DNA of 64,000 bases, from contig CAYOFN010000001.1 of assembly GCA_964403535.1 (NCBI GenBank), positions 2,003 to 66,002 on the forward strand, written 5' to 3'. Shown here piece after piece: positions 20,352-37,011 of the stretch (the stretch's first letter is position 1; every line of letters begins with the position of its first letter). Source of the DNA: Candidatus Woesearchaeota archaeon. Lineage in GTDB: Archaea > Nanobdellota > Nanobdellia > Pacearchaeales > GW2011-AR1. The notes beneath the pieces are model-generated. The model made no database searches. It had not been told where the DNA came from and saw only the letters and a list, made by a program, of their open reading frames with translations. The position numbers and the translations under genes are program-made.

Positions 20352-20993
20352 CTATTTCAATACGTCTTTAATCTCAGCAATATCTGAGACAATAATCTCA
20401 GGATTTTCATCTAAAATTTCTTTTCTGGAATTCCACGCACACTTACTCATAATAATAATCCCTTTACATCCAACTTTCCTTGCAACTCTTATATCTGCAG
20501 CTCTGTCTCCAATATAATAACATCTATCTTTTTTTATCCTGTTTTTTTTAAGATACTCTTTAATAAACTCTGCTTTATCATTAAAATCTTCAGCTCCATA
20601 GATTCCTTCAAAGTACTTATTTAATTTAAAATGAGTTATAATTGGAACTACAAATTCTTTTAAAGAATTTGAAACAATAATTTTTCTCTCCTTGATTTTT
20701 TTAATTTCCTCAACATCTCTGCATTTCTTAACATCTCTGATATTTTTCTTGACATTTTTCATAATCTTCATTTTTAAGATCCACAAAACAATAAAAGAAA
20801 ATCCAAATTTTTTTAAAGTCTCTTCTAAACTCAATCCAAGATTAATTATTTTATTAACCTGATTATGATTAAAACCATATTTTTTTAATTCATTATAAAT
20901 CCCAAGATAGTACAACTGCTTAGTATCTGCAATAGTTCCATCAAAATCAAAAATAAGAAAGAAACCCTTATTTATCTTTGCTCTTTTTTTCAT
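20352..20993 (-). CDS. HAD-superfamily hydrolase
   Basis: DxDGT motif I (LIFDFDGTIADT) and C-terminal GD motif (YIGDRAADI). Confidence 0.7.
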   Translation of the reverse strand: MKKRAKINKGFFLIFDFDGTIADTKQLYYLGIYNELKKYGFNHNQVNKIINLGLSLEETLKKFGFSFIVLWILKMKIMKNVKKNIRDVKKCRDVEEIKKIKERKIIVSNSLKEFVVPIITHFKLNKYFEGIYGAEDFNDKAEFIKEYLKKNRIKKDRCYYIGDRAADIRVARKVGCKGIIIMSKCAWNSRKEILDENPEIIVSDIAEIKDVLK

Positions 20994-22998
20994 CTTCTTC
21001 TAGTTTCTTAAGAAAATCACCTATGAACTTTTTATTTACATCCACATTTACAATACTCTTAATTTTAAAAACATCTTCTTTAGCATGTTTCTCTGTCTTT
21101 ATGCTGCTGATTGTTTTTTCATGAAGCTCTTTTCCAATTAAAACTTCTCCATTTGAAATCTCTGCAATTTTTCTTATACTTGTAATTGTCTTTCCAAGTC
21201 CAGTAAACTTTAATTTTCCATCTTCTATCTGGTTTATAATTTCTCCAGAATTAACTCCTATTCCAAACTCAATTCTTTCATTGAATTTTTTATTATGCTC
21301 TTCTAGTGCTTTTTGTATAGAAACTGCTGACTTTACTGCCTGCATCTCATTTTTAAAACTCTTTGTAAGCAGTGGACTGAAGATTATGAAGAAGTATTCA
21401 CCTGCTCTATACACTGCTCCTTTTAAATCATAAACCTCTCCAAAAGCTTTTTCTAAGCTTTCTTTTGAAATTTTTGCAAGTGTATTCTTAATCTTGATTC
21501 CAATCATTGAAACACTCTGTCTTTCACCTTTTAGCACCAATACATGTTCTGCTTCTTTTACTGCAGTTCCAGTCTTTATTGGTAAAAGTTTTAAAACTCT
21601 TGCTTCTTTTTTCACTTTTCCAGAATTATGTCTCTCATAATCTCTGTCTGAAATAGGATACGAAACTGCTCTTTTCTTTGAAATTCTTTGAAACATCATT
21701 AAGATAAAGACTCCCATAACAGCAATCAAAAAAAGCCAGACAATCGGATATCTTGTCCAGAGACCTAACTTTCCCTTAACATCCTCTACACTTATTACAC
21801 TCCCAGTTAATGGAACCCTCTCCTGAACTAAGGTATTTGTTCCATCACTTATTTTGATGTTATACTCTCCAGGAGGAGCTAAAAGACTAAACTTTTTTTC
21901 CTCACCAACTTTTAGTTTTAAATCCAGTATTTTAACAGAATCCCCTATTGAGATTTGCACAGCTCTTTGATAAATAATATTCCCTATATTTTTTATAACC
22001 AGAGTTTGATTATCAATCTCAAATCTTGCAAGTTCTACTTCTTCTACACTAAACAATCTTTTACTGCTTAACTCATCTTTTGTTGCAATCACCTCCCAGT
22101 ATCCAGAAAGAGGATTATCTCCCAGACTAACATTCACACTCTCCCCAACCTGCACAAGCCTTTTCCACCTCTCTGTCCCTGCACTATCTTTAATCTCCAC
22201 CATCACCTCCCCAGGAATAACTTGATTTGATTGGTCATAAAGAAAAACCTTAAATTCTAAAATATCTTTTGGAGAAATTGTCTGTTTATTTATTGCGACC
22301 TCTATTTTCTTGCCCTGTTGCATTATTTTTAAGTCTACTCTTACTTCTCCAGTATTTGTAATCTCTCCTTGCTCATCTTTCTCATATACTGTTGCAATGA
22401 GTGGATAAGTCCCTGCATTCATATTTTCAGGAATAGTAAAATTAACAGAGAATTTGCCATCTTTAACAACTCCAAGGTATTTTAAATTAGAAGTTCCAGC
22501 AGTAATTTCAACATAACCAAGCATACTCTGTCCAACTAAAAGATTATTTTTTTTAATTGCACTTCCTTTAGCAATTACACTCTCTCCGGGCTGGTATGTT
22601 CGGTCTTTTATATCAAAATTAACCTCTATCTCCCTTGATATTTCAAACCTCTGACTTTCTTTCAAATTTTTCCCATATTCTGCAGAAAAATAACACTCTC
22701 CACTTAAATTACCTATATACAAGGGTACTAGTGGCAAAGCAATATTTGTTTGTTTTTTTGTTAACAAAGAGTTATACACATTTTTATGAGTGTTCTCACA
22801 GACTAAATCTACAGAAAAATATCCTTCTGAAATGCTGCTAACCTCAGCAGTTAACTTTATTTCTTCACCAAGATTATACAAACTTTTAGGTTGGCTTAAA
22901 ATTATTTCTGCACTTACAACTGAACTCATCACAATAAGCATAACTAGTAAACCACTCCAAAAATATAAATTCCTCATTTTAATCTTTATTTTACCCAC
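20968..22998 (-). CDS. signal-peptide surface protein with single TM and cytoplasmic C-terminal domain (degenerate nucleotide-cyclase-like?)
   Basis: 676 aa with an N-terminal signal, a large extracellular region, and a TM helix (LWTRYPIVWLFLIAVMGVFILMMF). The C-terminal ~230 aa loosely resemble a class III cyclase fold (FGIGVNSGEII). Confidence 0.4.
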   Translation of the reverse strand: MGKIKIKMRNLYFWSGLLVMLIVMSSVVSAEIILSQPKSLYNLGEEIKLTAEVSSISEGYFSVDLVCENTHKNVYNSLLTKKQTNIALPLVPLYIGNLSGECYFSAEYGKNLKESQRFEISREIEVNFDIKDRTYQPGESVIAKGSAIKKNNLLVGQSMLGYVEITAGTSNLKYLGVVKDGKFSVNFTIPENMNAGTYPLIATVYEKDEQGEITNTGEVRVDLKIMQQGKKIEVAINKQTISPKDILEFKVFLYDQSNQVIPGEVMVEIKDSAGTERWKRLVQVGESVNVSLGDNPLSGYWEVIATKDELSSKRLFSVEEVELARFEIDNQTLVIKNIGNIIYQRAVQISIGDSVKILDLKLKVGEEKKFSLLAPPGEYNIKISDGTNTLVQERVPLTGSVISVEDVKGKLGLWTRYPIVWLFLIAVMGVFILMMFQRISKKRAVSYPISDRDYERHNSGKVKKEARVLKLLPIKTGTAVKEAEHVLVLKGERQSVSMIGIKIKNTLAKISKESLEKAFGEVYDLKGAVYRAGEYFFIIFSPLLTKSFKNEMQAVKSAVSIQKALEEHNKKFNERIEFGIGVNSGEIINQIEDGKLKFTGLGKTITSIRKIAEISNGEVLIGKELHEKTISSIKTEKHAKEDVFKIKSIVNVDVNKKFIGDFLKKLEEDEKKSKDK

Positions 22999-23077
22999 TT
23001 TTTAAGAAGAGGGTATATTTAAACTTTATTAAGAAGGAACGAAGCTTTTATAAATCTGTTAAGCATTTTTTAGGGAT

Positions 23078-24220
23078 ATGAAAAAAGCTGGTGTAAAAAC
23101 TAAAAAAATGGTAGTTACTCCCTGGGAAGTTGAAGGCAAGGTAGACTATGATAAATTAATAAAAGAATTTGGAGTTTCAAAAATTGACTTTGCTCTTCTT
23201 GAGAGAATTAAAAAACATACAGGAGAGTTACATCCTTTTTTAAGAAGAAAAGTTTTTTTTGCTCACAGAGATTTAAACTGGCTTTTAGATGAGTATGAAA
23301 AAGGAAATTCCTTTTTCCTTTATACAGGAAGAGCTCCATCAGGACCAGTTCATATAGGGCATCTTCTTCCGTGGATATTCTGCAAGTGGCTGCAGGATAA
23401 ATTCAATGCAGAAATGTGGTTCCAGTTTCCAGATGAAGAAAAATTCCTTTTTAAAAAAGAATTGGAGTTTAAAGATACTGAGAAGTATCTCTATGAAAAT
23501 ATGCTTGATGTTATTGCTCTTGGTTTTGACCCAAAGAAAACTCATTTTTTAATTGATACACAGCACGCAGGTTTAATGTACAAGCAAGCCTGTAGAGTAG
23601 CAAAGAAGATAACTTTCTCCACAATAAAAGCAAGTTTTGGTTTTACAAATGAAACTAATATTGGAAGTATTTTTTATACAAGCATGCAGGCTGTCCCTAC
23701 TTTCTTGCCCTCAATACTAAAAGGGAAAAATATTCCGTGTTTAATACCTCTAGGAATAGATCAGGATACTCATTTTAGAGTTTCCAGGGATGTTGTTCCA
23801 AAGTTAGGGTATTATAAGCCGGCAATAATTCATACAGTATTCCTCCCTCCGCTCTCTGGCACTAGCGGGAAAATGTCTGCATCAGATGACTCCTCAGCAA
23901 TCTACACAACAGACACTCCAAAACAGGTTGAGAAAAAAATAAAAAAATATGCTTTTTCAGGAGGACAATCAACTCTCGAGTTGCACAGAGAACATGGAGG
24001 AAATCCTGAAGTTGATGTAAGCTTCCAGTATCTTAAAATGTTTTTCGAGCCAGACGACAAGAAGCTCGAAAAAATAGAGCAAGATTATAGAAGCGGAAAA
24101 CTTCTCACAGGAGAATTAAAAGAAATCTTAATTGAAAAAATCAACAAGTTTTTGAAAGAGCATCAAAAGAAGCGCGAGTTAGCAAAATCTCAAGTTGATA
24201 AATTTATTTTTAAGGGCTAG
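23078..24220 (+). CDS. trpS: tryptophanyl-tRNA synthetase (archaeal/eukaryotic type)
   Basis: HIGH motif (PVHIGHLLPW) and KMSAS motif (GKMSASD). Confidence 0.85.
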   Translation: MKKAGVKTKKMVVTPWEVEGKVDYDKLIKEFGVSKIDFALLERIKKHTGELHPFLRRKVFFAHRDLNWLLDEYEKGNSFFLYTGRAPSGPVHIGHLLPWIFCKWLQDKFNAEMWFQFPDEEKFLFKKELEFKDTEKYLYENMLDVIALGFDPKKTHFLIDTQHAGLMYKQACRVAKKITFSTIKASFGFTNETNIGSIFYTSMQAVPTFLPSILKGKNIPCLIPLGIDQDTHFRVSRDVVPKLGYYKPAIIHTVFLPPLSGTSGKMSASDDSSAIYTTDTPKQVEKKIKKYAFSGGQSTLELHREHGGNPEVDVSFQYLKMFFEPDDKKLEKIEQDYRSGKLLTGELKEILIEKINKFLKEHQKKRELAKSQVDKFIFKG

Positions 24221-24826: not shown

Positions 24827-25593
24827 CTAATCCCTCAACTTCTCAGAAGAAGCCTGGTTTGAAATAGCAATTCCACTCTTTTCAATACTAAAAGGATAAA
24901 CTTCAAGTGAATGTTTTACCCCCCTCATCTTTAAGATTTCTATAAACCTCTCTCTTTTCTTTTTGATTCTCGGAAAATACAAAAGAATAATTGAATCAGA
25001 CTCAAATTCAAGAGCACGTGAGGCTGATTTTTTCTCTCTAAAAGGCTCTCCTTCATAAGTAAGCAGAGAAGTGCAATCCCATTTTCTTAGCATATTAAAA
25101 AGAGCAAGTGACGCCTCTCTTCTCTTAATTGCATCATCAAATAACAATTCAAAAGAAGTAATGCTGTCAATCACAATCCTTGTTACTTTTCTTCTTAGAA
25201 CAATTGACTCAACTGTTCCCCCACCTTCCTCTAACATTGTTCTGACTTTTTCAGGAGTATACTCAAGAAACATAAATTTTCCTTCTTTTTCATATTTTTC
25301 CAAATCCCACCCAAACTCCTTCATATTTTCATAAAACTCCTTTTTCTTTTCCTCAAATGTAATATACAGACATTTTTCTCCTTTTTTTATTCCTTCGATT
25401 AAGAACTGAACAGCAAAGATACTCTTCCCACTTCCACTTCCTCAACAATCAAATTAGTAGAATCTCTCTCAAACCCTCCTTCAGAAATCTTGTCAAAATT
25501 AGAAATTCCAGAAGCAACTTTTTGCTGCTCTTTTTTATTCATTTTTCTCTCTCCAACACTTTTGGACTTGTCCTTCTCCCTTTTTTTTACCAT
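24827..25593 (-). pseudogene. KaiC/RecA-superfamily ATPase (FlaH-like) disrupted by a -1 frameshift just upstream of the Walker A motif
   Basis: ORFs 25399-25593 (..GGFERDSTNLIVEEVEVGRV*) and 24827-25324 are two halves. The alternative frame across 25380-25440 reads GSGSGKSIFAVQFLIEGIKKGEKCLYITFEE and joins in frame to MKEFGWDLE. One missing G at ~25440-25446 (gttgagg versus gttggagg) would restore LIVGGSGSGKS. Confidence 0.6.
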
Positions 25594-25794
25594 ACTTATT
25601 AAAGAAAAAATAAGTATAAAAATCTATCTTTAAATTATTACTCTCATTAAAACATTAAATCTAGATAAGCATAACTTAATTTAAATTCACTAATTGTCTA
25701 TCTCCATTAACAACCAAAATTCTCCAGTTATTAATAATAGTCTATTAACATTAATACTCCTCTCTTCATAATCTTTTCAACACTAACCTTTTTC

Positions 25795-26718
25795 TTAAGC
25801 AATTAACTCAGAGATAAAACCAGACAAGAAAAATCTTACTGCAAAAAAAGTTCCTAGTCCTAAAATCAGCAAAGGTAGAAGATATTTCATTCCTTCTTTT
25901 TCCTCTCCCTTGCTTACTAACCCAAGAACAAGCGATGCTAGAATATCCGTAGTGATAATAAAAACTATTGAAAAATATTTTATAAACCCCACAGAAACAT
26001 TTACACTTGAAAGAGTGAATGGAAGATTTACAGGAGCAGAAGTTATATTCACACTTGGAATTGAACCAATAAGCTTTGTCAAAGTTTCAACTAGGATATT
26101 TGAGAGTGAAAATAATGCAGGCGAAAAAATTGCAACAGCAAGAAAAATAAATATCACATACATAAGAACATTTGAAGCAGCTTTTTTCTCAACAAAATCC
26201 CGTTCTCTCATGCTTATAGATGTTTCCTCCAACAAAATAGCAATATCCCCCCCAGCACTCATTCCAGATTTAAGCAAAAGAATTGTTTTATAAATTTTAT
26301 CAGAACCTATTTTTTTTGACATTTCAAGCAAAGCTGACTCAGTGGTTTGTCCAGTAGCTATAGCCTTTCCAGCATTCATTATCTCTTCATCAAGCGGGGA
26401 AAACTCTTTTCTTGAACTTAATAACATTGCTTTATCAATAGTCATTCCTGCTCTTAGATTACTTGACATTAATTGCAGAAAATCAGGAAAAACATCTTCC
26501 ATCTTTTTTATTCTTGCACTCTCCTTTAGATCTTTGCTGACTTTTAGATAAACAAACCATAAAATTAAGAATACAAAAAAAGCTCCTGCAAGAACAATCC
26601 AACTCTTGTAAACAATAAAAAAGATACTGGAGACTATCAGAGAAAAAACAATCCCGATTACTGCTTGCTTGTTTTTCCTAGCTCTTTCTTCAGGTGTAAT
26701 CCTCTTTCTAGTTTTCAT
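25795..26718 (-). CDS. FlaJ/TadC-like type IV pilus assembly membrane protein (T2SS-F domain)
   Basis: 307 aa polytopic protein. It forms a pair with the upstream paralogous membrane protein, as in Epd/Tad pilus systems, and sits beside the FlaI-like ATPase. Confidence 0.55.
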   Translation of the reverse strand: MKTRKRITPEERARKNKQAVIGIVFSLIVSSIFFIVYKSWIVLAGAFFVFLILWFVYLKVSKDLKESARIKKMEDVFPDFLQLMSSNLRAGMTIDKAMLLSSRKEFSPLDEEIMNAGKAIATGQTTESALLEMSKKIGSDKIYKTILLLKSGMSAGGDIAILLEETSISMRERDFVEKKAASNVLMYVIFIFLAVAIFSPALFSLSNILVETLTKLIGSIPSVNITSAPVNLPFTLSSVNVSVGFIKYFSIVFIITTDILASLVLGLVSKGEEKEGMKYLLPLLILGLGTFFAVRFFLSGFISELIA

Positions 26719-27596
26719 AATAAACTCGGCCTCCTTGATTTTATCATTCCAAGAAACATTATCTGAACTAAAACAACAAAAACAAACAACCCAATAAAAA
26801 TTAGCTGAGTCATTGTTTTTGGAAGGTTGATCATAGAGGAGATTATTGTGAGAAAGGTTACAGAGAGAGATGGGATAATCACTGAAATCAGCATGTAAAA
26901 CATAATTAAAGGATTCAGCCTATTTCCGTAATTCTGTATTTGTATTAATTGTTCTTCATTTAGAGCCTTTATGCTGTCTTTAATCACAATAGACATATCA
27001 CTTCCTGCCCTCATTCCATTGCTAATTTGCCAGAGAGTTCTTCTGAAAAAAACAGAACTATTTCTTTCTCCAAGATTCTCCAGAACATCTTCCTGAGGTT
27101 CCCCTGCATTTATTCTCTTAACTGCTTTTTTAAACTCCCCGCTTAACTCTCCATAATCTGCTTCTGAAAGATTAGTTAAAATGCTGAACAATGGAATTCC
27201 TGAATTAAGTTGAATTAAAATATCCTCAAGTGCAGGAATAAGATCTTTTTCTATTCTTCTCTGTCTTCTTGAAGTGTATATTTTTGGATAAACCATCTGG
27301 CTAAAAAATACAAAAAAAGAAAATAAAAGAGAAACAACAAATCCATATAAATAAAATAATTTAATGCTTAACAGAGCAAGAATACTGGTTGAGATAACAA
27401 ACAGAATTAAAAAGGAAAAAATAAATGTTCTTTTGACTATCGCAATGTACTCTTCCCTTGAAATTCCAGCATCAATATTTTTAAGTGACTCAGAGAGTGC
27501 AGATTTTTTTTTGTGTTTTATTTTTCCAGCAGAGACCTTAACTTTTCTTTTTAATCTCTCAATATCTGAGAATGTGAAGGGTATGCGGAATTTCAT
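26715..27596 (-). CDS. FlaJ/TadB-like type IV pilus assembly membrane protein (T2SS-F domain)
   Basis: 293 aa polytopic protein located between the ATPase and the second membrane protein, with overlapping stop/start. Confidence 0.5.
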   Translation of the reverse strand: MKFRIPFTFSDIERLKRKVKVSAGKIKHKKKSALSESLKNIDAGISREEYIAIVKRTFIFSFLILFVISTSILALLSIKLFYLYGFVVSLLFSFFVFFSQMVYPKIYTSRRQRRIEKDLIPALEDILIQLNSGIPLFSILTNLSEADYGELSGEFKKAVKRINAGEPQEDVLENLGERNSSVFFRRTLWQISNGMRAGSDMSIVIKDSIKALNEEQLIQIQNYGNRLNPLIMFYMLISVIIPSLSVTFLTIISSMINLPKTMTQLIFIGLFVFVVLVQIMFLGMIKSRRPSLL

Positions 27597-27598
27597 AT

Positions 27599-29221
27599 TT
27601 ACCTTCCAAGAACTCTTTTTAAGTCATTTTTCCTGATAGCACTCATTAGAGACTCTTTATCATTATAATACAAATTCATAACTCTTCCAAAATCATTTAA
27701 ATCTCTAATCTTATTTTTAATCAGCCAGTCCAGTATTGCTCTTTTTTGTTCCAGGTTTCTGTTTAGCTCTGCTTGTGACATTCCTGTGTTTCTGTTTATG
27801 CTTTCAAAAAATTTAGAACTCTCAGAGTGCCTGATAATCTTGTCTTCTTCAGGAACCCAACGATAAAGAATATTTGCACTTGCACTGTCCTGCTCTGCCT
27901 CGAATTCTGCTACCTGGAATACCCTTCTTATTCCTTTTCTTCTATCTCTAAACATTACAACATTTAAATGAACTGCTTTTAGCAGATTAGGAGGAACATT
28001 TAGAGGAGGATTAGTCAGTCTTGAGATTGTCTCAGCAGCACTATCTGCATGAACTGTTGCATAAACAGAGTGTCCTGTGTGCATTGCTTCAAACAATACT
28101 TCAGCTTCTCTTTGTCTTCTCATTTCTCCAAGAACAATTCTATCAGGTCTCATTCTCAGCGAATTAACAAGCAAGTCCAGCATTGAAACCTCTCCTTTTC
28201 CTTCAGGATTTGCAGATCTTGTGACAAGCGGCGCCCAGTATAAAAATTCAGGCAACATAAGTTCTCTTGTATCTTCTACACTTATAATTCTGTGATTTGG
28301 AGGAATAAAAGGCATCAGAGCATTTAAGAGAGAGGTTTTTCCACTTGCTGTTCCCCCACTTATTAATACATTCATCTCATACTCAACTGCAAGCCAGAGA
28401 AGTGCAGCAACTTCTAAATTGCAGGTACGACTGGTTATTAAGTCAATAATTGTATACGGGTCTCTCGCAAACTTTCTAATAGTTATTGTATTTCCCTTTG
28501 TAGCAATAGGATAAAGAATAGAATTAACTCTATCACCTGTAACAAGATGCGCATCTAATAATGGAGTAAGAACAGTAATCTGTCTTCCAACTCTTCTTGC
28601 AACAATATTTGAGTAGTTTGAAATTTCCTCTTCTTTTGCAATTCTTAAGTTTGTAGAAAGCCATCCATATTTTTTATGGTAAACTCTTATTGGCTCTTTT
28701 GCAGAAGGAATTACTACTTCCTCGAGATTTACATCATTAACTAAAAATTCTATTTGCCCTAATCCAAGCATATCCTGCATTAATTTTCCAACTAAAAACT
28801 CCTGCATGCTCTTCTGAAGGCTAGGAAGCTTTTCTTTAAGCAACGTCGCTGCTTTCTGCATAAATCTTTTTTTAATCTCCTGAAAAGCCGAAGGGTCAGT
28901 CATCTCCTTCATGCTGATTGTTGTTACAGAAACAAGTTCATTTCTAACCTCACTTAAAAGAGCACCTGTAGCTGCACCAATCTCAGGGACATTTACACTG
29001 TATATCACCCCCAACTCCTCTCTTTTAATCTCAACATCTACTACTGCTCCATCAACTCCAATTTTGTATTTTTCAAGAAGTCCTTTTTTAATTGGAGCCT
29101 CTACTCTTTTCTCAGTCTTCTTTGAGATTTTTTCTTTTGTATTTTCAGTTCTCACAGATTTTACTTTTAAAACCCTTTTAACACTATACTCTTTTTTCTT
29201 AACCTTCTTTTTCTTTTTCAT
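27599..29221 (-). CDS. type IV pilus/archaellum assembly ATPase (FlaI/PilB/TadA-VirB11 family)
   Basis: Walker A (ISGGTASGKTSLLNAL), Asp box (ISVEDTRELMLP) and His box (MHTGHSVYATVHA). Confidence 0.85.
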   Translation of the reverse strand: MKKKKKVKKKEYSVKRVLKVKSVRTENTKEKISKKTEKRVEAPIKKGLLEKYKIGVDGAVVDVEIKREELGVIYSVNVPEIGAATGALLSEVRNELVSVTTISMKEMTDPSAFQEIKKRFMQKAATLLKEKLPSLQKSMQEFLVGKLMQDMLGLGQIEFLVNDVNLEEVVIPSAKEPIRVYHKKYGWLSTNLRIAKEEEISNYSNIVARRVGRQITVLTPLLDAHLVTGDRVNSILYPIATKGNTITIRKFARDPYTIIDLITSRTCNLEVAALLWLAVEYEMNVLISGGTASGKTSLLNALMPFIPPNHRIISVEDTRELMLPEFLYWAPLVTRSANPEGKGEVSMLDLLVNSLRMRPDRIVLGEMRRQREAEVLFEAMHTGHSVYATVHADSAAETISRLTNPPLNVPPNLLKAVHLNVVMFRDRRKGIRRVFQVAEFEAEQDSASANILYRWVPEEDKIIRHSESSKFFESINRNTGMSQAELNRNLEQKRAILDWLIKNKIRDLNDFGRVMNLYYNDKESLMSAIRKNDLKRVLGR

Positions 29222-29233
29222 TTATCCTCTTTT

Positions 29234-29779
29234 TTATTTTGCAGATATTTTGAGAACAGGCTCCCCTCCAAATCCAGGATACTCTATTGTTGCAAGATTG
29301 CTCGATTCAAGCATCTTTGCCCAGTTTAGTGCAGTGTCTTTCTTAACCTTGAATGTTTTTGCAATTGTTGAGACTCTTACTTGTTTTTTACTCTCCAAAA
29401 TTTTATACAATACATCTAAATCAGTCCCTTTTTGAGATACTTTGTTAATATCAATTCCTTCTAATTCTTTTTTTCTGCTTTTAACTCCCTTATCTCTGAC
29501 AGATATAACCAAAAGCAAAACTAATACTACCCCCCACTGAACTATAAGGAAAACTCTTGCAGTAAAAGATATCTCTTGATATGCTTTAATAAACGTATCT
29601 CCTACTGAAAATCCAGTTATCCCTCCAGATAACCCTCCAAACTTAAAAGCATATCCCCCAAGATTTATAATAAACAAAAATGCTGATACAAACAAGACTC
29701 TTAAAAAAAGTGTTTTTTCTCCTCTTCTTTTAACAGGTTTCTCTTTAAGTTCTATCTTCCCTCTTTTTTTATCAATCAT
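29234..29779 (-). CDS. membrane protein, first gene of the pilus-assembly operon (possible C-terminal winged-helix)
   Basis: 181 aa with 2 TM helices and a soluble C-terminal domain. Confidence 0.35.
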   Translation of the reverse strand: MIDKKRGKIELKEKPVKRRGEKTLFLRVLFVSAFLFIINLGGYAFKFGGLSGGITGFSVGDTFIKAYQEISFTARVFLIVQWGVVLVLLLVISVRDKGVKSRKKELEGIDINKVSQKGTDLDVLYKILESKKQVRVSTIAKTFKVKKDTALNWAKMLESSNLATIEYPGFGGEPVLKISAK

Positions 29780-29780
29780 C

Positions 29781-29870
29781 TTTTATAAAAATGTTTAAAT
29801 ATCTTATTTATTATGTATATACACCGTGGATTTATTTTATAAATCTTGCTAAAAAAGAGAAAAACATAAT
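29781..29870. promoter_or_regulatory. divergent promoter region between pilus-assembly operon (minus) and prepilin operon (plus)
   Basis: Two TATA-like boxes ~25-35 bp upstream of each start codon (TTTTATAAAAATG on the minus side; TTTTATAAAT at 29835-29844). Confidence 0.35.
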
Positions 29871-30287
29871 ATGGCTCATTTTAAAAAATCTCAGATAAGT
29901 TCAGAGTATTTGGTTATAATCGGATTTGTCACTTTTGTCATAATTGGAATCCTTGGAATAGCATTTTTTTATACAGGAGCTATAAAAGACAGAATGAGAA
30001 TCAATCAAATAACCAATTTTGCCAGTAAAATCATCTCCACATCTGAATCATTGTTCTATTCAGGCAAGCCTTCAAAAGCAACTGTCTCTGCATATCTTCC
30101 TGATGGAATAACTGGAATTCAAATTGCAGAACAAAGCTTAATTTTCACTGTCTATACAAGTTCAGGAGAGAATAAAATTAGTTTTCCAAGTAAGGTTCCT
30201 ATAACTGGAAATATTATAGGCACCCAGGGAGTAAAGAAGATTACTATAGAAGCTCAGGAGAGCGCAGTTTCAATAAGTCCTGCTTAA
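29871..30287 (+). CDS. prepilin-like protein with class III (archaeal type IV pilin) signal peptide
   Basis: N-terminus MAHFKKSQISSEYLVIIGFVTFVIIGIL matches a QxSxE-type prepilin signal followed by a hydrophobic helix. Confidence 0.5.
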   Translation: MAHFKKSQISSEYLVIIGFVTFVIIGILGIAFFYTGAIKDRMRINQITNFASKIISTSESLFYSGKPSKATVSAYLPDGITGIQIAEQSLIFTVYTSSGENKISFPSKVPITGNIIGTQGVKKITIEAQESAVSISPA

Positions 30288-30288
30288 A

Positions 30289-30702
30289 ATGGGAAAATCA
30301 AAAAAGAGGGGGAAAAATAAAAATGCACAATCTTCAATCGAATTTCTCATTATTATTGGGTTTGTCTTATTTTTCTTTATAATATTTTTTGTAGCAATTC
30401 AGGAAAAAATAGTTGAGGAAACAAAGCAAAATCAAGAATTATCAGTAAAAGAAATTGCAATTACAGTCCAAAATGAAATCAATCTTGCGCTTATCTCAAG
30501 TGACGGATACACCCGCGAATTTAAGATTCCAATGAATCTTGGAAATAAAAATTACAGCATTAATATAACTGAAGACATGGTTTATGTAAAAACAATAGAT
30601 AACAAGAGTGCAATTGCTTTGCCTGTCGCAAAACTCACAGGAAACATTCAGAAAGGAACAAACACAATTAAAAAACAAAACAATGAAATTCTTCTAAACT
30701 AA
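30289..30702 (+). CDS. prepilin-like protein (class III signal peptide)
   Basis: N-terminus MGKSKKRGKNKNAQSSIEFLIIIGFVLFFFIIFF. Its start codon is 2 nt after the previous stop. Confidence 0.55.
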   Translation: MGKSKKRGKNKNAQSSIEFLIIIGFVLFFFIIFFVAIQEKIVEETKQNQELSVKEIAITVQNEINLALISSDGYTREFKIPMNLGNKNYSINITEDMVYVKTIDNKSAIALPVAKLTGNIQKGTNTIKKQNNEILLN

Positions 30703-30704
30703 AA

Positions 30705-31205
30705 ATGAAAAATAAAAATGCACAAGCCTGGGGAATTGATTTGATAATTGCAGGATTTATCTTTACTATAGGGATCACCTCATTTTACCTTTATACTATT
30801 AATTATACTGCAGACTCAGAAGAAGTAATAGAAACTCTAAGGTACGAAGGAAATATTATTGCAGACATAATTCTCTCAGAAGGATATCCAAAAAACTGGA
30901 CTTTAATTAATGTAGTCTCTCCAGGAATTCTGTCAGAGAATAAAATAAACGAGACAAAACTACAGAACTTCTATACTCTCACTATTTCAGATTATCCTAA
31001 AACAAAAACCTTGTTTAATACAAGATATGACTACCTCCTGCTCTTTAATGAAAATCTTACTATCGGCGCAAATGAAATAAATAAGATAGGAAAACCAGGA
31101 GTTAGTCCAGGAACTATTTCTTCTGAAAATCTCATAAAAATAACCCGTTTTACAATATACAAAAACACTCCAATAACAGTCAATCTTTATATCTGGGAAA
31201 AATGA
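30705..31205 (+). CDS. prepilin-like protein (class III signal peptide)
   Basis: N-terminus MKNKNAQAWGIDLIIAGFIFTIGI; translationally coupled to the previous gene. Confidence 0.45.
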   Translation: MKNKNAQAWGIDLIIAGFIFTIGITSFYLYTINYTADSEEVIETLRYEGNIIADIILSEGYPKNWTLINVVSPGILSENKINETKLQNFYTLTISDYPKTKTLFNTRYDYLLLFNENLTIGANEINKIGKPGVSPGTISSENLIKITRFTIYKNTPITVNLYIWEK

Positions 31206-33082
31206 AAACAAAAAAAGCAATTTTTTTTAGCACAGACGCACTAATAGCCCTGCTCATAATCTTCTTAAGCATACTGATAATTTATCCGATCATAAAGTAC
31301 TCAGATTACAAGACAAACTTAAATGAAGATGTACTCACTGTTCTTTCGAGTTTAAAAGTAGGAGAAGTAAATAATTCTTATATTCAAAATTTAATTTCTT
31401 TAAAAGAAATAACTGATTTGAACAAATCTATCCTCGAGCAAATAGGAGATTTTTATGTAACTAATTTAACAAGAGCTAAGGAAATGACAAAATCAATTCT
31501 TCTTACTCTTAATACAACAGAGAATATCGGAGTATGGTATGGTGAGGATTTGCTCGCTTCTGTAAACTCATCACCTTATGAGACAGCTACAGATATAGAA
31601 GTAGAGAGGCAAATTATCAGTGGTATAGAAAAAGGAAAATCTTCAAAAGGTTTTGTGTCTAAAGCATGGCTTAGAAAAGTTTCAAAAAAAAAGAATATTT
31701 TGTTCATAAAAGGAGATTTAATGTGTGGAGGATGGAAATCTTATTCTTGGGGGGATTATTGCGGAACTAGCGAGGCTACAGCAGTTTATAATGTAAACTT
31801 TCCAACAAATGCAACTATCAAAAATGCTTTTTGGTTAATTGAAGGTGCCTGGACTCCTCAATTCTCAAGAGCATATGTAAATGGAGTAGAAGTGTATAGT
31901 GGAAGTGTAGACCATTATACTAATGTAGACATAACTTCTTTTCTTCATCCTGGAAATAACACAGCAACACTCTACGGTGCAATTGGAGTAGAAGATGGAG
32001 CTTCTCACATTATTGTAGAGTATGAAACTCCAGATATGCAGACTTATCACTCTCAAACTAAGTTTTACCTAAACAAACTCACAGCAACCTCTGTCCTTCA
32101 TCAAGAAAAATCAATAATACTCCCTTCAGACATCTCATTAATTAATGCAACAATAAATACAACTTCAGATGTAACTCTATCATTTAGAAAAGGAATTAAG
32201 AGTTTTGAAATAGGAAAAAAATCACCTGTAAATAATATTGTTACTTTCTCAGATGCAGAAATAAAAAATGCTTTAAACTCAAATGGAATCTCTTATTCAG
32301 ATTTAAACAGCGAATACTTTTTTTTAACTCTTGATATTGGGAAAGACACTCCTGGGCAGGTTATTACACTTGAAGGAGAGTCTTTTTTTTACATAAACTC
32401 TTCTAAAATAATTATGCCCTATGGAACAATTGATATAACTCAGGAAATTCCTCTAACAAACTCCTCTAATCATGTGGTCCACACTTTTTACAGAAATTTG
32501 GAGTGGCAATTTCATCTTCCTATCAGTTCAACACCTATCCTTGCAGACTGGCAGTTTGGATGGTTTATTGAATTAGGAGTTTCAGAGCAAAAGGTAACAG
32601 CTAATGGTATTGTTCTTTATGATTCTCCGCCTGATGCTTTTATTCCTGCTTTTAGTAGATTTGGCTATTCTCCCTCAAGAGCCCAAGGAGTATTTCAGGA
32701 AGGACAGAATAATTTTACCCTTGACTTTGGAAATACTTACAGTGTCTCAAATGAATCTTCTTACGGACATCTGATTTATTTTATCAAGAGCTATGTAAAT
32801 TATGGAGATGCAAAAGAAAAAGCGCAAGGAGGAACAAGAGTTCTGGAATTTGAAGATGGTTCAGTCCAAACTTTTAGAGTTGGAAATTTTTCAGATGTAT
32901 GGGACCCTGATGTTGATGCAGTAGATGATGCTGTAGAGCGTCTCTTTTCTCAGTTAGATGCAGATAAAGATAATAAACTTGACTTAGTATTTAATGCAGA
33001 CTCATTTAGCATTGAAAGCATGGACATTTCTGGAGTTCCATACATTTGGAACACTGAAGTTCAAGCAAGAAGATGGATATAA
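31202..33082 (+). CDS. large pilin-like surface protein (626 aa) with N-terminal pilin-type hydrophobic helix and many N-glycosylation sequons
   Basis: N-terminus MKTKKAIFFSTDALIALLIIFLSILIIY. Its start overlaps the previous stop by 4 nt. Numerous NxS/T sequons. Confidence 0.45.
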   Translation: MKTKKAIFFSTDALIALLIIFLSILIIYPIIKYSDYKTNLNEDVLTVLSSLKVGEVNNSYIQNLISLKEITDLNKSILEQIGDFYVTNLTRAKEMTKSILLTLNTTENIGVWYGEDLLASVNSSPYETATDIEVERQIISGIEKGKSSKGFVSKAWLRKVSKKKNILFIKGDLMCGGWKSYSWGDYCGTSEATAVYNVNFPTNATIKNAFWLIEGAWTPQFSRAYVNGVEVYSGSVDHYTNVDITSFLHPGNNTATLYGAIGVEDGASHIIVEYETPDMQTYHSQTKFYLNKLTATSVLHQEKSIILPSDISLINATINTTSDVTLSFRKGIKSFEIGKKSPVNNIVTFSDAEIKNALNSNGISYSDLNSEYFFLTLDIGKDTPGQVITLEGESFFYINSSKIIMPYGTIDITQEIPLTNSSNHVVHTFYRNLEWQFHLPISSTPILADWQFGWFIELGVSEQKVTANGIVLYDSPPDAFIPAFSRFGYSPSRAQGVFQEGQNNFTLDFGNTYSVSNESSYGHLIYFIKSYVNYGDAKEKAQGGTRVLEFEDGSVQTFRVGNFSDVWDPDVDAVDDAVERLFSQLDADKDNKLDLVFNADSFSIESMDISGVPYIWNTEVQARRWI

Positions 33083-33110
33083 AAAACAAATAAAAAACAA
33101 GATTATATTC

Positions 33111-33440
33111 CTACTTCCCTATATCTGATTTAGCTGCTTCAGTTATAAGGTTTTTTCTTTCATCTTTAGTTATTAGTCCTTGCAAAAGAAAATATTTAGA
33201 GGTATGAGATACGCAACTAACATACTCCCCATGATTTCTTAAGTTTTCAGAGCATATCTGAACAACAGAGCACCCATCTGAGTTTACAACATCTCCACTC
33301 TCTGTGTTCATGCACAAATCATCAACATCTAAAATTCCATCATTATCACTATCTGTTGGAGCAGGTGGTGCAGCTGAAATACCCACACTTAAAATCAATA
33401 AAGACAGAACAACTGAAAGCACTATAAATATACTTTTCAT
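33111..33440 (-). CDS. secreted protein with thrombospondin-type-3-like Ca-binding Asp repeats
   Basis: Signal peptide, then DSDNDGILDVDDLC...NSDGCS. Confidence 0.4.
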   Translation of the reverse strand: MKSIFIVLSVVLSLLILSVGISAAPPAPTDSDNDGILDVDDLCMNTESGDVVNSDGCSVVQICSENLRNHGEYVSCVSHTSKYFLLQGLITKDERKNLITEAAKSDIGK

Positions 33441-33512
33441 TTTACCCTCCTTTTAAAAATAACAGATAAGAAGATATTTAAGGTTTTATATATTCAGATA
33501 TATACAACTAAC

Positions 33513-34433
33513 ATGAAAAATAAAAGAGGGATGTTCTTTACTCTACTAGTAATAGCCTTGCTCGCCTTATTTCTTGTTACTTATTCTTCTTTTCATCTTA
33601 TTGAGGAAAGAAAAGCAACTAACAAGAGAGTAGAGAGCATGAACAGTTTTATCTTCTCTCTTGAACAAGACATTTCAAGACAGATTTATATCTCCAGCTA
33701 TCGGGCTCTTCTCTCTCTTCAATACTCCTTAACAACAAAAGAAGAATTTTTAGATGATTCAAGAGCATCAATCAAAGAAGCTCTGCTAAACGGAACAATT
33801 GAAGGGGAAAACATAAGTTTAATGGAGGGTTATAGAATTCAGGACTGGAGCTCAAGAATTTCAGAGTTTGGAAATAAAACAAATCTTCAGATTGATTACT
33901 CGATTCTAAATATAAGTGTAACTCAGGAAGACCCCTGGAATATTAAAATTGACCTGTCTCTAAGAATGTTAATTAAGGACAATTCTAATCTAGCTTCTTG
34001 GAACAGGACTCAGAATATCTCTTCAAAAATTGAGATAATTGGATTTGAAGACCCCCTTTATATTATTTACACTAGAGGAATCTTTTCAAATAAAATAAAC
34101 AAAACAATTTACTCTCCATTTGTAGACGGAACAAATGTACAAAATCTTACTTTTCATTCAACACACTCTTATTACATTGCTTCTCCTGATGCCCCAAGTT
34201 ACCTTGATAGGCTTGAAGGAAAAACTTCAGCAAATCCAAATGGGGTAGAGTCTCTTGTTTATTTTCCAGTACTCTCCTCAAAAGGAATAAATGTGGAAGA
34301 TAAATCCTGTGTAGACCATATTTATTTTTCTTCAAATAACCCTTCTGCCCATAGAATAACTGGAATGCCTGTTTGGTTTAAGATTGATGATGCTCATCTT
34401 GCTTTGTATAATGTTACTGCTCTTTCAATCTAA
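33513..34433 (+). CDS. pilin-like/surface protein with class III-like signal (MKNKRGMFFTLLVIALLALF)
   Basis: KRG followed by a hydrophobic helix, and a glycosylation-rich ectodomain. Confidence 0.4.
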   Translation: MKNKRGMFFTLLVIALLALFLVTYSSFHLIEERKATNKRVESMNSFIFSLEQDISRQIYISSYRALLSLQYSLTTKEEFLDDSRASIKEALLNGTIEGENISLMEGYRIQDWSSRISEFGNKTNLQIDYSILNISVTQEDPWNIKIDLSLRMLIKDNSNLASWNRTQNISSKIEIIGFEDPLYIIYTRGIFSNKINKTIYSPFVDGTNVQNLTFHSTHSYYIASPDAPSYLDRLEGKTSANPNGVESLVYFPVLSSKGINVEDKSCVDHIYFSSNNPSAHRITGMPVWFKIDDAHLALYNVTALSI

Positions 34434-35017
34434 TTAGAAACTATTCCTCCAACAATTCCACCAATCTCTACTTTGATCTCTCCCTCAAGAATGTAAGTAA
34501 CGAAAACATCTTCATAAAACTCTTCTTTTCCAGAATTATCACACTCAAAAACAAAATTCTCCTCTTCATCATTCTCTATTATCTCCTGCACTTCTGGAGT
34601 ACACCCTCCAAGTTTCATCTTCACACTCATACTCTCCCCTAACTGATTTCTAATCTTTAGAGAAACACTCTCATTTTTAATATAATTTACAAAACAGGTA
34701 ATATGCGGAAGATTTCCTGGGCGGATTAATACACAATAATCTTCTTCATTCACTTTCTCACTCTCTGCACCAGGTTCACTGATTACTCCACTTCCTCCGC
34801 CTCCACTGCTCCCTCCAGAACTTCCTCCAGTTCCTTCAGAGATGACTCCACCAGAGATTAAATTATCCCCACCCTCAAGGTTTTCTGTAGTCTCGGTTTT
34901 CAAAACGTTCTCATTTGTCCCTCTCTCACTATTTTTTGGAGAGTAAATAAATGCAACTCCAAAAAGAAATATCAAAATAACAGTAAAAATTCCAACCAAC
35001 CAAAAAGCTCTCCCCAT
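34430..35017 (-). CDS. membrane-anchored Gly/Ser-rich protein
   Basis: N-terminal TM helix and a GGSSGGSSGGGGSG linker. Confidence 0.3.
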   Translation of the reverse strand: MGRAFWLVGIFTVILIFLFGVAFIYSPKNSERGTNENVLKTETTENLEGGDNLISGGVISEGTGGSSGGSSGGGGSGVISEPGAESEKVNEEDYCVLIRPGNLPHITCFVNYIKNESVSLKIRNQLGESMSVKMKLGGCTPEVQEIIENDEEENFVFECDNSGKEEFYEDVFVTYILEGEIKVEIGGIVGGIVSN

Positions 35018-35309
35018 TTTTTTATTCTTATTAATTTACTCTGGATTAATTAAGATCTCAAGCATATAAAAACTTATTCTTACTCTTAATCTAACCCTTA
35101 AAATTAATACTTTTAATTCTCCCCCTCCTAAGACAGTTTCTTGATTAATAATTAATAAATCTTGTTTAAATTAAGCATTCTAGAAACTCTTATGGTTTAA
35201 CAAGCAATTAATCCCATTGACTATAAAAATAAAATCGAGTATAGAAATCTTTATAAAGAACTTAATCCTCGAGTATATTATTATAAAACAAAATTCAAAA
35301 GGAGGTAAA

Positions 35310-35750
35310 ATGCAAAGAAAAGGACAAGCAGCTATGGAATTCTTGATGACTTATGGTTGGGCTATTTTAGCAGCAGTAATTGCAATAGGTGTTCTTGCAT
35401 ATTTCGGTGTTTTCTCACCTGGAAAATATGTAACAGGTAATGCTGTTGTAAATCCACCATTTTATATTAATGCTTGGAATGCAAAAGCATCTACAGGTGT
35501 TACACTTGAGCTCAAGAATAATGGCGGAGAAGACTACGAGATTCAGAGTGTTGATATAAGCAATTGCGGATCAGACAGCACAGCAACTTCAATTCCAGCA
35601 GACACGAGCGCAGCTATAACAGTTGCATGCACTACACCACTGCTAGAAGGAGAATCTTTTAAAGGCGATATAACTGTGAGTTATAGAAAAGAAGGTAGCA
35701 CAGTAGACTTGACATCAACAGGAACAGCTGCAGGAAAAGTAGTAGCTTAA
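35310..35750 (+). CDS. major type IV pilin candidate (class III signal peptide RKGQAAMEFLMTYGWAIL)
   Basis: Start chosen at MQRKGQ (35310), preceded by SD GGAGGT (the track ORF starts upstream at 35217). Canonical archaeal prepilin motif KGQ..E.L. Followed by a T-rich terminator. Confidence 0.6.
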   Translation: MQRKGQAAMEFLMTYGWAILAAVIAIGVLAYFGVFSPGKYVTGNAVVNPPFYINAWNAKASTGVTLELKNNGGEDYEIQSVDISNCGSDSTATSIPADTSAAITVACTTPLLEGESFKGDITVSYRKEGSTVDLTSTGTAAGKVVA

Positions 35751-35801: not shown

Positions 35802-36779
35802 TTAATTTCTAATCATCTTTCTAAATTTTTCTACATATCCAGGAGTATACTGATTCTTTGGAATTGCTCCTTTTGGATTATCTTCATTAGGAAAACTCTC
35901 TGCCCACACTTCTCTCATAACTTCAAAAGTTCTATCTCCAATTATTCCATCTTCAACAAGTCCTGCTCTTTTCTGAAATTCTGATACAATCCTTTTTGTA
36001 GCCTTTCCATTATCTCCATCTGGACTAATCCACTGAGGATAAAATAAATCACTTAACATCTGTTGAGCTCTTGCAGTTCTTGGTGCTAACTGTCCAGAAT
36101 TATATGCAGCAGCAGCAAGTTCAGGAGTTCCATATCTTTCTAAACCTAATTGAAACAATCTGGTTGCATAAGCTTGATTTATTTCAGGAACAAACAATCT
36201 TTCCTGCAAATGTCTCTCTTTTCTTATAGCCTCAATAGTTTTTTCATCTAACTCCCCTATTCTTTTTAATCTATGTTTTCTCTGAATCCTATCAATATAA
36301 ATTGCAGTAGCTCCGTCAATTTTTTCATCTAATCTTACATCCAATTCCTCTCTCTTAATTCTTTTCTTTCCATCTACTACTACTTCCCTCTTAACCTCTA
36401 TTCTTTCACCATATAATTTGATTAAATCCTGCTTTGCTTTAATTAATCCATATTCCTTCTTTGAGAATTCAGCATAATCAGAAATTCTTGGCAAATCTGG
36501 AAATCTTCTTTCTAGAGCAAGTGCAGTCTCAGTAGTCAACTGCCCTAATCCATAACTTGTATCATTAATATGGCTTTCATATCTCTGTTCACTAGGTTTT
36601 CTTCCACTCTCTATTGTGTATATAACTCTCATATAATCATCAAGAGTAAGTTTTTTCTCTTCTGGCTTTCTCTCACATCCAATTACAGATAACAAACTCC
36701 CACAAATTCCTAGACTTATCGCCCCCATCGCTCCTCTACCACATTTTTCTAAAAAATCTCTTCTTGATATTTTTTCCAT
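35802..36779 (-). CDS. TAT-signal lytic murein transglycosylase (SLT domain) with C-terminal peptidoglycan-binding (PG_binding_1-like) domain
   Basis: Likely start MEKISRRDFLEK at 36777-36779 (twin-arginine motif SRRDFLEK, then a hydrophobic region ending IGC). SLT catalytic motifs (YTIESG...SYGLGQLT, AAAAYNSGQ). C-terminal DGIIGDRTFEVM PG-binding-like repeat. Confidence 0.65.
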   Translation of the reverse strand: MEKISRRDFLEKCGRGAMGAISLGICGSLLSVIGCERKPEEKKLTLDDYMRVIYTIESGRKPSEQRYESHINDTSYGLGQLTTETALALERRFPDLPRISDYAEFSKKEYGLIKAKQDLIKLYGERIEVKREVVVDGKKRIKREELDVRLDEKIDGATAIYIDRIQRKHRLKRIGELDEKTIEAIRKERHLQERLFVPEINQAYATRLFQLGLERYGTPELAAAAYNSGQLAPRTARAQQMLSDLFYPQWISPDGDNGKATKRIVSEFQKRAGLVEDGIIGDRTFEVMREVWAESFPNEDNPKGAIPKNQYTPGYVEKFRKMIRN

Positions 36780-36780
36780 T

Positions 36781-37011
36781 TTATCTCCCCCTATTTTCTG
36801 GCATTTTATACTCTGGGTCTTTAACAAAATAAGTCAACCCATTTGGAGTTTTTTCAGCTTTTAATCCAGGTGCTGCTAAGGCAATTTCAGGATTTTTAAA
36901 TGTTCCAGATAAAACTAAATAAACTAAAGGAGTCAAAATAGCAAGTTTTAACCACTGAGTTCCACCTCTTGCTCTCCTTCTCTCAGCTCTTGTCTCTAAA
37001 TTTTCTGTCAT
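36781..37011 (-). CDS. small hypothetical protein (1 TM) immediately upstream of the lytic transglycosylase
   Basis: 76-aa ORF whose stop abuts the proposed SLT start. Confidence 0.3.
   Translation of the reverse strand: MTENLETRAERRRARGGTQWLKLAILTPLVYLVLSGTFKNPEIALAAPGLKAEKTPNGLTYFVKDPEYKMPENRGR

What the first reader, a model, noticed from the sequence alone, without database searches (positions are those of the whole stretch)
35802..36779. TAT-signal lytic transglycosylase with peptidoglycan-binding domain in an archaeal genome
The sequence shows a twin-arginine motif SRRDFLEK plus a hydrophobic region ending in IGC (possible lipobox-like cysteine). Family-1 SLT motifs are present (ES...GLGQLT, AYNSGQ), and the C-terminal DGIIGDRTF repeat is typical of PG_binding_1. 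The protein is exported folded via TAT and targets murein, a polymer the host archaeon should not make. This is most likely horizontal acquisition from bacteria, with a role in interaction with bacteria.
Basis: partly seen in the sequence, partly recalled or inferred. Interest (0 to 1): 0.7.

Follow-up and report, generated by a model that had tools for sequence, protein, structure and literature searches.

The report
Archaeal surface enzyme cutting bacterial walls
A tiny symbiotic (DPANN) archaeon encodes an exported, probably membrane-tethered enzyme of the bacterial lytic transglycosylase type with peptidoglycan-binding modules built into it; the gene is real and long resident in this lineage, but enzymes of this kind have already been reported from these archaea.

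Summary

The host is archaeal: archaea-specific ThrRS editing domain, intron-bearing tRNAs, thermosome and archaeal pilins.

The gene is not a contaminant or a recent import. It sits in the same context in four independent assemblies and its codon usage is native. It belongs to a family of about 68 proteins, and every named member is from Woese-, Pace- or Nanoarchaeota, with conserved synteny. The nearest outgroup is a set of SLTs from CPR bacteria and one phage-like contig, so the transfer was ancient.

Two details are new:
- The PG-binding domain is nested inside the catalytic domain, and a second, degenerate copy lies in a 90-aa insert.
- The long-form clade always sits beside an archaeal type IV pilus locus.

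The most likely role is a surface-tethered murein-cleaving enzyme used on bacteria. GH23 transglycosylases in these archaea are already published, so this is a new member of a known kind. Tat export itself is unproven.

The parts
35802..36779 (-). Coding sequence of the 325-aa lytic transglycosylase (stop codon TAA at 35802-35804)
36675..36779 (-). Signal peptide, residues 1-35: twin-arginine motif SRRDFLEK (36744-36767), mildly hydrophobic h-region, and lipobox V-I-G-C (36675-36686) with Cys35 as the predicted lipidation and cleavage site
   Evidence: Sequence. An RRxFL-type motif is found in 28 of 68 family members. Lipobox consensus is from PMC12462473. NCBIfam TAT model is sub-threshold. 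AlphaFold pLDDT is below 60 here, as expected for a signal peptide.
36483..36662 (-). SLT catalytic segment 1, residues 40-99: helix ending in the catalytic E57-S58 (codon E57 = 36609-36611), the R66-Y67-E68 triplet, and motif II S75-YGLGQ-80
   Evidence: Invariant columns are listed. Helix 46-58 is in the model. The same ESxGNPxAxRYExxINDxSYGLGQ signature occurs in the CPR SLTs P0205-P0213.
36213..36482 (-). 90-aa insertion between SLT motifs II and III, residues 100-189: a helix, a beta-hairpin and a degenerate second PG_binding_1-like module (about residues 147-187). Present only in the long-form clade.
   Evidence: The gap between motifs II and III is 126-143 residues in P0001-P0004, against 55-64 in the other members where both motifs were located. 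hhalign of the inserts against the family's PG-binding domain gives 97% probability, E=2.8e-11. All 5 inserts hit PF01471 (best E=3.9e-8), but the window's own copy scores only E=0.2.
36075..36212 (-). SLT catalytic segment 2, residues 190-235, including motif III A224-Y-N-S-G
   Evidence: Pfam SLT match covers residues 182-240. The family profile aligns from GLMQ to AYNAG of P. aeruginosa Slt, E about 6e-4.
35916..36074 (-). PG_binding_1 domain, residues 236-288, nested between SLT motif III and the terminal motif
35805..35867 (-). C-terminal conserved segment, residues 305-325 (IPKNQYTPGYVEKFRKMI): the returning last helix of the SLT fold, the motif IV-like YVxKF
36781..37011 (-). 76-aa single-pass membrane protein ORF immediately upstream. 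Its stop codon lies 1 nt before the LT start, so the two are probably co-transcribed.
   Evidence: It is present with the LT in four independent assemblies. It has no homologue in related loci and no Pfam or PHROG family.
24827..35750 (.). Adjacent archaeal type IV pilus-like locus: KaiC-like ATPase (frameshifted), two PilC/T2SSF genes, PilB/T2SSE, and six proteins with class III (pilin-type) signal peptides. The last pilin gene (35310-35750) is convergent with the LT.
   Evidence: Pfam results; N-termini. The same locus lies next to the LT homologue in L005, L010/L011 and L018.
20968..24220 (.). Synteny anchors: a 676-aa MG2-domain protein and a class-I Trp/Tyr-type tRNA synthetase. This pair accompanies the LT gene in all related DPANN loci that have enough flank.
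   Evidence: tblastn finds both near the LT homologue in L005, L007, L008, L010, L012-L014 and L019, and the MG2-domain protein also in L009 (Pfam).

Best explanation
**What it is.** The gene encodes a cell-surface lytic transglycosylase of a DPANN archaeon from the Pacearchaeota/Woesearchaeota group.

**How it most likely works.**
- The precursor is exported through an N-terminal signal peptide that has a twin-arginine motif. After export it is probably lipid-anchored at Cys35 of a consensus lipobox. Export and anchoring are inferred.
- The mature protein is a GH23, family-1 SLT fold with catalytic Glu57.
- By analogy with Slt70, MltC and MltE it would cleave the beta-1,4 MurNAc-GlcNAc bond of murein and form 1,6-anhydro-MurNAc. 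This is inferred from the fold and the invariant motifs.
- One intact PG_binding_1 module is nested in the catalytic domain, and a degenerate second copy sits in an insert. These would hold the enzyme on peptidoglycan.

**What it acts on.** No murein-synthesis genes were seen in the parts of the window scanned, and archaea are not known to make murein. The substrate is therefore taken to be the wall of bacteria that the archaeon touches. A tethered enzyme next to a type IV pilus-like locus fits local, contact-dependent opening or nibbling of a bacterial wall, for attachment, access or feeding.

**Origin.** An ancestor of this DPANN clade acquired the gene long ago from a CPR-bacterium-like or phage-like SLT lineage, and it has been inherited vertically since.
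For: **Shown.**
- Active-site motifs are invariant in 22 homologues, which points to a working enzyme.
- Archaeal host: archaeal ThrRS editing domain, two intron-containing tRNAs, thermosome, class III signal-peptide pilins and PilB3_C.
- Genuine resident gene: identical context in 4 independent assemblies. GC is 0.340 against 0.337. The synonymous-codon likelihood is better than the window mean (-0.771 against -0.907 +/- 0.076).
- The family is DPANN-restricted where names exist, with MG2-protein and tRNA-synthetase synteny.
- There is a profile E-value gap from 1.9e-27 to 3.9e-13 before the next tier. That tier includes proteins in bacterial contexts (RelA/SpoT, ClpB, Mur ligase, Ddl, L33), a Woesebacteria protein and a phage-like contig. 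They share the RYE, SYGLGQ and HVxKF signature.
- In the short-form clade a second murein hydrolase, Amidase_2, lies directly upstream.
- The pilus locus is adjacent in 4 of 4 long-form loci, even though the gene's position relative to the locus differs in the window.
- The LT diverges faster (43% identity) than its neighbours (67-72%), as surface and interaction proteins often do.

**Literature.** The same inference has been drawn for GH23 enzymes of Woese- and Pacearchaeota (PMC8204110, PMC9723730, PMC10936187). Archaeal Tat-signal PG_binding_1 hydrolases have been shown to kill bacteria (PMC12352652). Lipoproteins are predicted to be common in DPANN (PMC12462473).
Against: - No enzymatic, localisation or host data exist.
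- Tat use is unproven. The curated Tat model is below its cutoff, no TatA or TatC was found in the sequence at hand, and 40 of 68 relatives lack the RR pair.
- A strict lipobox occurs only in this protein, and a looser one in 6 of 68. Anchoring is therefore not a family trait.
- Pilus adjacency is confined to one clade. It is absent within 8-10 kb in the short-form loci L007, L008, L012, L014 and L019, so it may reflect inherited gene order rather than function.
- The KaiC-like gene of the window's pilus locus carries a frameshift.
- All cultivated DPANN have archaeal hosts (PMC11291902 abstract).
- The DPANN-versus-rest split has only 50% bootstrap support in a crude NJ tree.
Confidence: 0.55

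Rival explanations
1. Free scavenging or bacteriolytic enzyme. The protein is released, or acts from the surface without any specific partner. It either degrades peptidoglycan debris for amino sugars and peptides, or lyses competitors in the way Woldo and Danwoldo do in haloarchaea. It has no functional link to the pilus locus or to a host.
For: - 40 of 68 relatives lack the RR pair, and only 6 of 68 have even a loose lipobox, so tethering is not conserved.
- The short-form clade is not next to pilus genes but next to an Amidase_2, which looks like a degradative pair.
- Published readings include necromass recycling and 'vampiristic' feeding (PMC9723730) and secreted killing enzymes (PMC12352652).
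Against: - This particular protein has an exact lipobox and only a 9-residue linker before the catalytic domain, which argues for a cell-bound enzyme.
- The window shows no amino-sugar or muropeptide uptake or catabolism genes among the ORFs scanned. The scan covered only 64 kb.
Confidence: 0.25
2. It acts on a non-murein glycan: the archaeon's own envelope, pseudomurein of a methanogen host, or chitin-like polymers. It is not directed at bacteria.
For: - The GH23 fold also houses a chitinase and lysozymes.
- Known DPANN hosts are archaea.
- According to a reference title cited in PMC12352652, at least one engineered wall-binding domain binds murein, pseudomurein and chitin.
Against: - The binding modules are PG_binding_1, not pseudomurein-binding repeats or chitin-binding modules.
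- The motif set is that of family-1 lytic transglycosylases.
- From established chemistry, not tested here: pseudomurein has beta-1,3 links to N-acetyl-talosaminuronic acid, whose C6 is a carboxylate, so a 1,6-anhydro product cannot form.
- A murein amidase (Amidase_2) accompanies the gene in relatives.
- PMC12352652 finds almost no such hydrolases in pseudomurein-making archaea.
Confidence: 0.07
3. Catalytically inert adhesin. The SLT and PG_binding_1 scaffold only binds bacterial walls and holds the archaeon on a partner.
For: - There are two PG-binding-type modules in one small protein.
- The second module and the long insert interrupt the catalytic domain and could disturb the cleft.
Against: - The catalytic Glu-Ser pair and motifs II-IV are invariant across long and short forms.
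- The split catalytic core still superposes on MltC at 2.6 A over 126 residues.
Confidence: 0.06
4. Artefact or foreign DNA: a bacterial or phage gene mis-assembled into an archaeal contig, or a recently integrated prophage endolysin.
- PHROG hits are to endolysins.
- A phage-like contig carries a related SLT together with an Amidase_2.
Against: - The gene order ThrRS, 76-aa ORF, LT, pilin is identical in 4 independently assembled samples.
- Composition and codon usage are native.
- No integrase or phage genes flank the gene.
- The PHROG hits cover only the PG-binding region.
- Only one weak relative was found in 2.9 million viral contigs.
- Synteny is conserved across divergent DPANN genomes.
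Confidence: 0.02

Closest known systems
Family-1 (GH23, Pfam SLT PF01464) lytic murein transglycosylases of bacteria: E. coli Slt70, MltC and MltE; P. aeruginosa Slt; C. jejuni Cj0843c
- Catalytic Glu-Ser at the end of a helix, plus the G-L-x-Q, A-Y-N-x-G and Y/H-V-x-K-F motifs.
   Different: - Sequence similarity is only marginal (E about 6e-4 with a family profile).
- The loop between the catalytic Glu and motif II is 5 residues longer and carries a conserved R-Y-E.
- The catalytic domain is interrupted twice by PG_binding_1-type modules.
- The host is an archaeon, and the protein has a Tat-type lipoprotein signal.
SLT-domain proteins of CPR/Patescibacteria (for example P0206, P0207, and P0212 from Candidatus Woesebacteria) and of one phage-like contig (P0204)
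   Same: They are the closest non-DPANN relatives (profile E of 1e-13 to 1e-8). They share the specific signature ESxGNPxAxRYEPxINDxSYGLGQ ... AYNAG ... GHVxKF.
   Different: - They have no PG_binding_1 domain at all, and the terminal HVxKF follows AYNAG directly.
- Their N-terminus is a coiled-coil plus a transmembrane anchor rather than an RR or lipobox signal.
- Their genomic contexts are bacterial.
[quoted passage not shown] 2021, PMC8204110; the AR20 protein of Castelle 2015; GH23 of Vigneron 2022, PMC9723730)
   Same: The same archaeal lineages, the same GH23 catalytic class, and the same proposed role of binding and degrading bacterial walls.
   Different: The published proteins are described as large, up to about 3,000 aa. 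This family is 230-370 aa with a nested PG_binding_1.
Archaeal modular peptidoglycan hydrolases with PG_binding_1 domains and Tat signals (Woldo and Danwoldo of Halogranum salarium, PMC12352652)
   Same: An archaeal producer, PG_binding_1 targeting modules, a Tat-type signal peptide, and a bacterial-wall target. In that case the target is demonstrated experimentally.
   Different: - The catalytic domains differ: M23 peptidase and glucosaminidase there, SLT here.
- The binding domains there are tandem and terminal; here they are nested.
- Those enzymes are secreted and soluble; this one has a lipobox.
- Those were recent acquisitions in haloarchaea; this is a clade-wide vertical family.
Phage phiKZ gp144 endolysin (PDB 3bkh)
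   Different: In gp144 the binding domain is N-terminal and separate. That protein is a signal-less phage lysis and virion protein.

Membership tests
Family-1 lytic transglycosylase (GH23; Pfam SLT PF01464) | Significant match to the SLT profile | tested here: met
   27.3 bits against a gathering score of 21.3, E=2.9e-6. Only profile positions 48-108 match, because the domain is split. Short-form relatives match SLT outright.
Family-1 lytic transglycosylase (GH23; Pfam SLT PF01464) | Catalytic Glu in an E-S motif at the C-terminal end of a helix | tested here: met
   E57-S58 is invariant in 22 of 22 aligned members. Helix 46-58 is present in the model. Direct superposition on the catalytic Glu of a solved LT could not be inspected, because no coordinates were available.
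Family-1 lytic transglycosylase (GH23; Pfam SLT PF01464) | Motifs II (G-L-M/G-Q), III (A-Y-N-x-G) and IV (Y/H-V-x-K-hydrophobic) | tested here: met
   GLGQ at 77-80, AYNSG at 224-229 and YVEKF at 315-319. Motifs II and III align to P. aeruginosa Slt. The definition of motif IV is from my recollection of the family description, supported by the CPR homologues.
Family-1 lytic transglycosylase (GH23; Pfam SLT PF01464) | Goose-type lysozyme-like fold | tested here: met
Family-1 lytic transglycosylase (GH23; Pfam SLT PF01464) | Non-hydrolytic cleavage of MurNAc-beta-1,4-GlcNAc giving 1,6-anhydro-MurNAc | not testable with these tools
   This needs an enzyme assay on sacculi with LC-MS of the products.
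PG_binding_1 (PF01471) | Profile match above the gathering score, and a three-helix fold | tested here: met
Tat (twin-arginine) substrate | S/T-R-R-x-F-L-K motif before a weakly hydrophobic h-region | tested here: met
   S5-R-R-D-F-L-E-K is followed by GAMGAISLGICGSLLSVIG. An RRxFL-type motif is conserved in 28 of 68 relatives.
Tat (twin-arginine) substrate | Curated Tat signal model above its cutoff | tested here: not met
   TIGR01409 scores 13.5 bits against a cutoff of 16.7, E=0.071.
Tat (twin-arginine) substrate | TatA and TatC translocase encoded by the organism | tested here: inconclusive
   None was recognised among the window ORFs scanned by Pfam. A motif and transmembrane screen of the window and of about 250 kb of related loci found none. 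The rest of the genome is not available.
Archaeal lipoprotein | Lipobox [LVI][ASTVI][GAS]C at the end of the signal peptide | tested here: met
   V32-I33-G34-C35. The consensus is as quoted in PMC12462473.
Archaeal lipoprotein | Lipidation machinery (AliA and AliB) present, and Cys lipid-modified | not tested
   No AliA or AliB query sequence was available. PMC12462473 reports AliA in DPANN 'with some gaps'.
Large DPANN extracellular LT proteins (fam00969, PMC8204110) | Very large multidomain protein (up to about 3,000 aa) carrying the LT domain | tested here: not met
   This protein is 325 aa and family members are 150-369 aa. It is therefore a different architecture, although it fits the same functional class.
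   No such Pfam or NCBIfam hits were found. The only hits are SLT, PG_binding_1 and a weak sub-threshold match to UPF0242.

The most novel reading that the evidence does not exclude
The transglycosylase is a functional accessory of the neighbouring archaeal type IV pilus-like apparatus. The pilus captures a bacterial cell, and the lipid-tethered enzyme, with its built-in PG-binding modules, opens the murein locally. This would let a Pace- or Woesearchaeota-like archaeon live as an episymbiont or parasite of bacteria. That would be a cross-domain counterpart of pilus-driven Saccharibacteria episymbiosis, using an SLT lineage shared with CPR bacteria.
Probability: 0.15. Interest if true: 0.75.

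Novelty: new member of a known kind. Interest (0 to 1): 0.35.

Why it matters
Nothing cited or searched here identifies a bacterial host for any DPANN archaeon; the abstract of PMC11291902 states that all cultivated DPANN are ectosymbionts of archaea. Murein-active enzymes are the main genomic hint that some Woese- and Pacearchaeota interact with bacteria.

This small family is conserved and vertically inherited, which makes it a tractable handle on that question.
- A 30-kDa mature protein can be expressed and assayed far more easily than the 3,000-aa proteins reported before.
- Its nested PG-binding modules could serve as probes to find which bacterial walls it recognises.
- Its linkage to a pilus locus and to an amidase gives testable predictions.
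- Its kinship with CPR SLTs adds to the evidence for gene sharing between the two ultrasmall radiations.

As a discovery it is incremental. The phenomenon is already in the literature, and NCBI already labels the homologues as SLT or peptidoglycan-binding proteins.

Tried and rejected
- **AFDB50 fold search.** The library was unavailable.
- **Exhaustive profile search.** The top 150 hits were dominated by unrelated multi-repeat PG_binding_1 proteins. It was useful only for showing that true family members number a few dozen 50%-identity clusters.
- **Viral contig scan.** One weak hit. A phage origin of the DPANN family is not supported beyond the single phage-like contig L016.
- **PHROG scan.** Only PG-binding-region hits to endolysins.
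- **Sigma-70 promoter and terminator scan.** Uninformative for an archaeon. A TTTAAATA box upstream of the 76-aa ORF was seen by eye only.
- **Search for a homologue of the 76-aa upstream ORF in related loci.** None found.
- **TatA motif and multi-TM screen.** Nothing found.
- **NJ bootstrap of DPANN against the rest.** Only 100 of 200 replicates, with saturated distances. An earlier script timed out. This is not strong enough to claim a single acquisition.
- **Stop-codon recoding as the explanation for an in-frame TAG in the thermosome gene.** Considered and rejected, because TAG terminates 10 of 59 genes.
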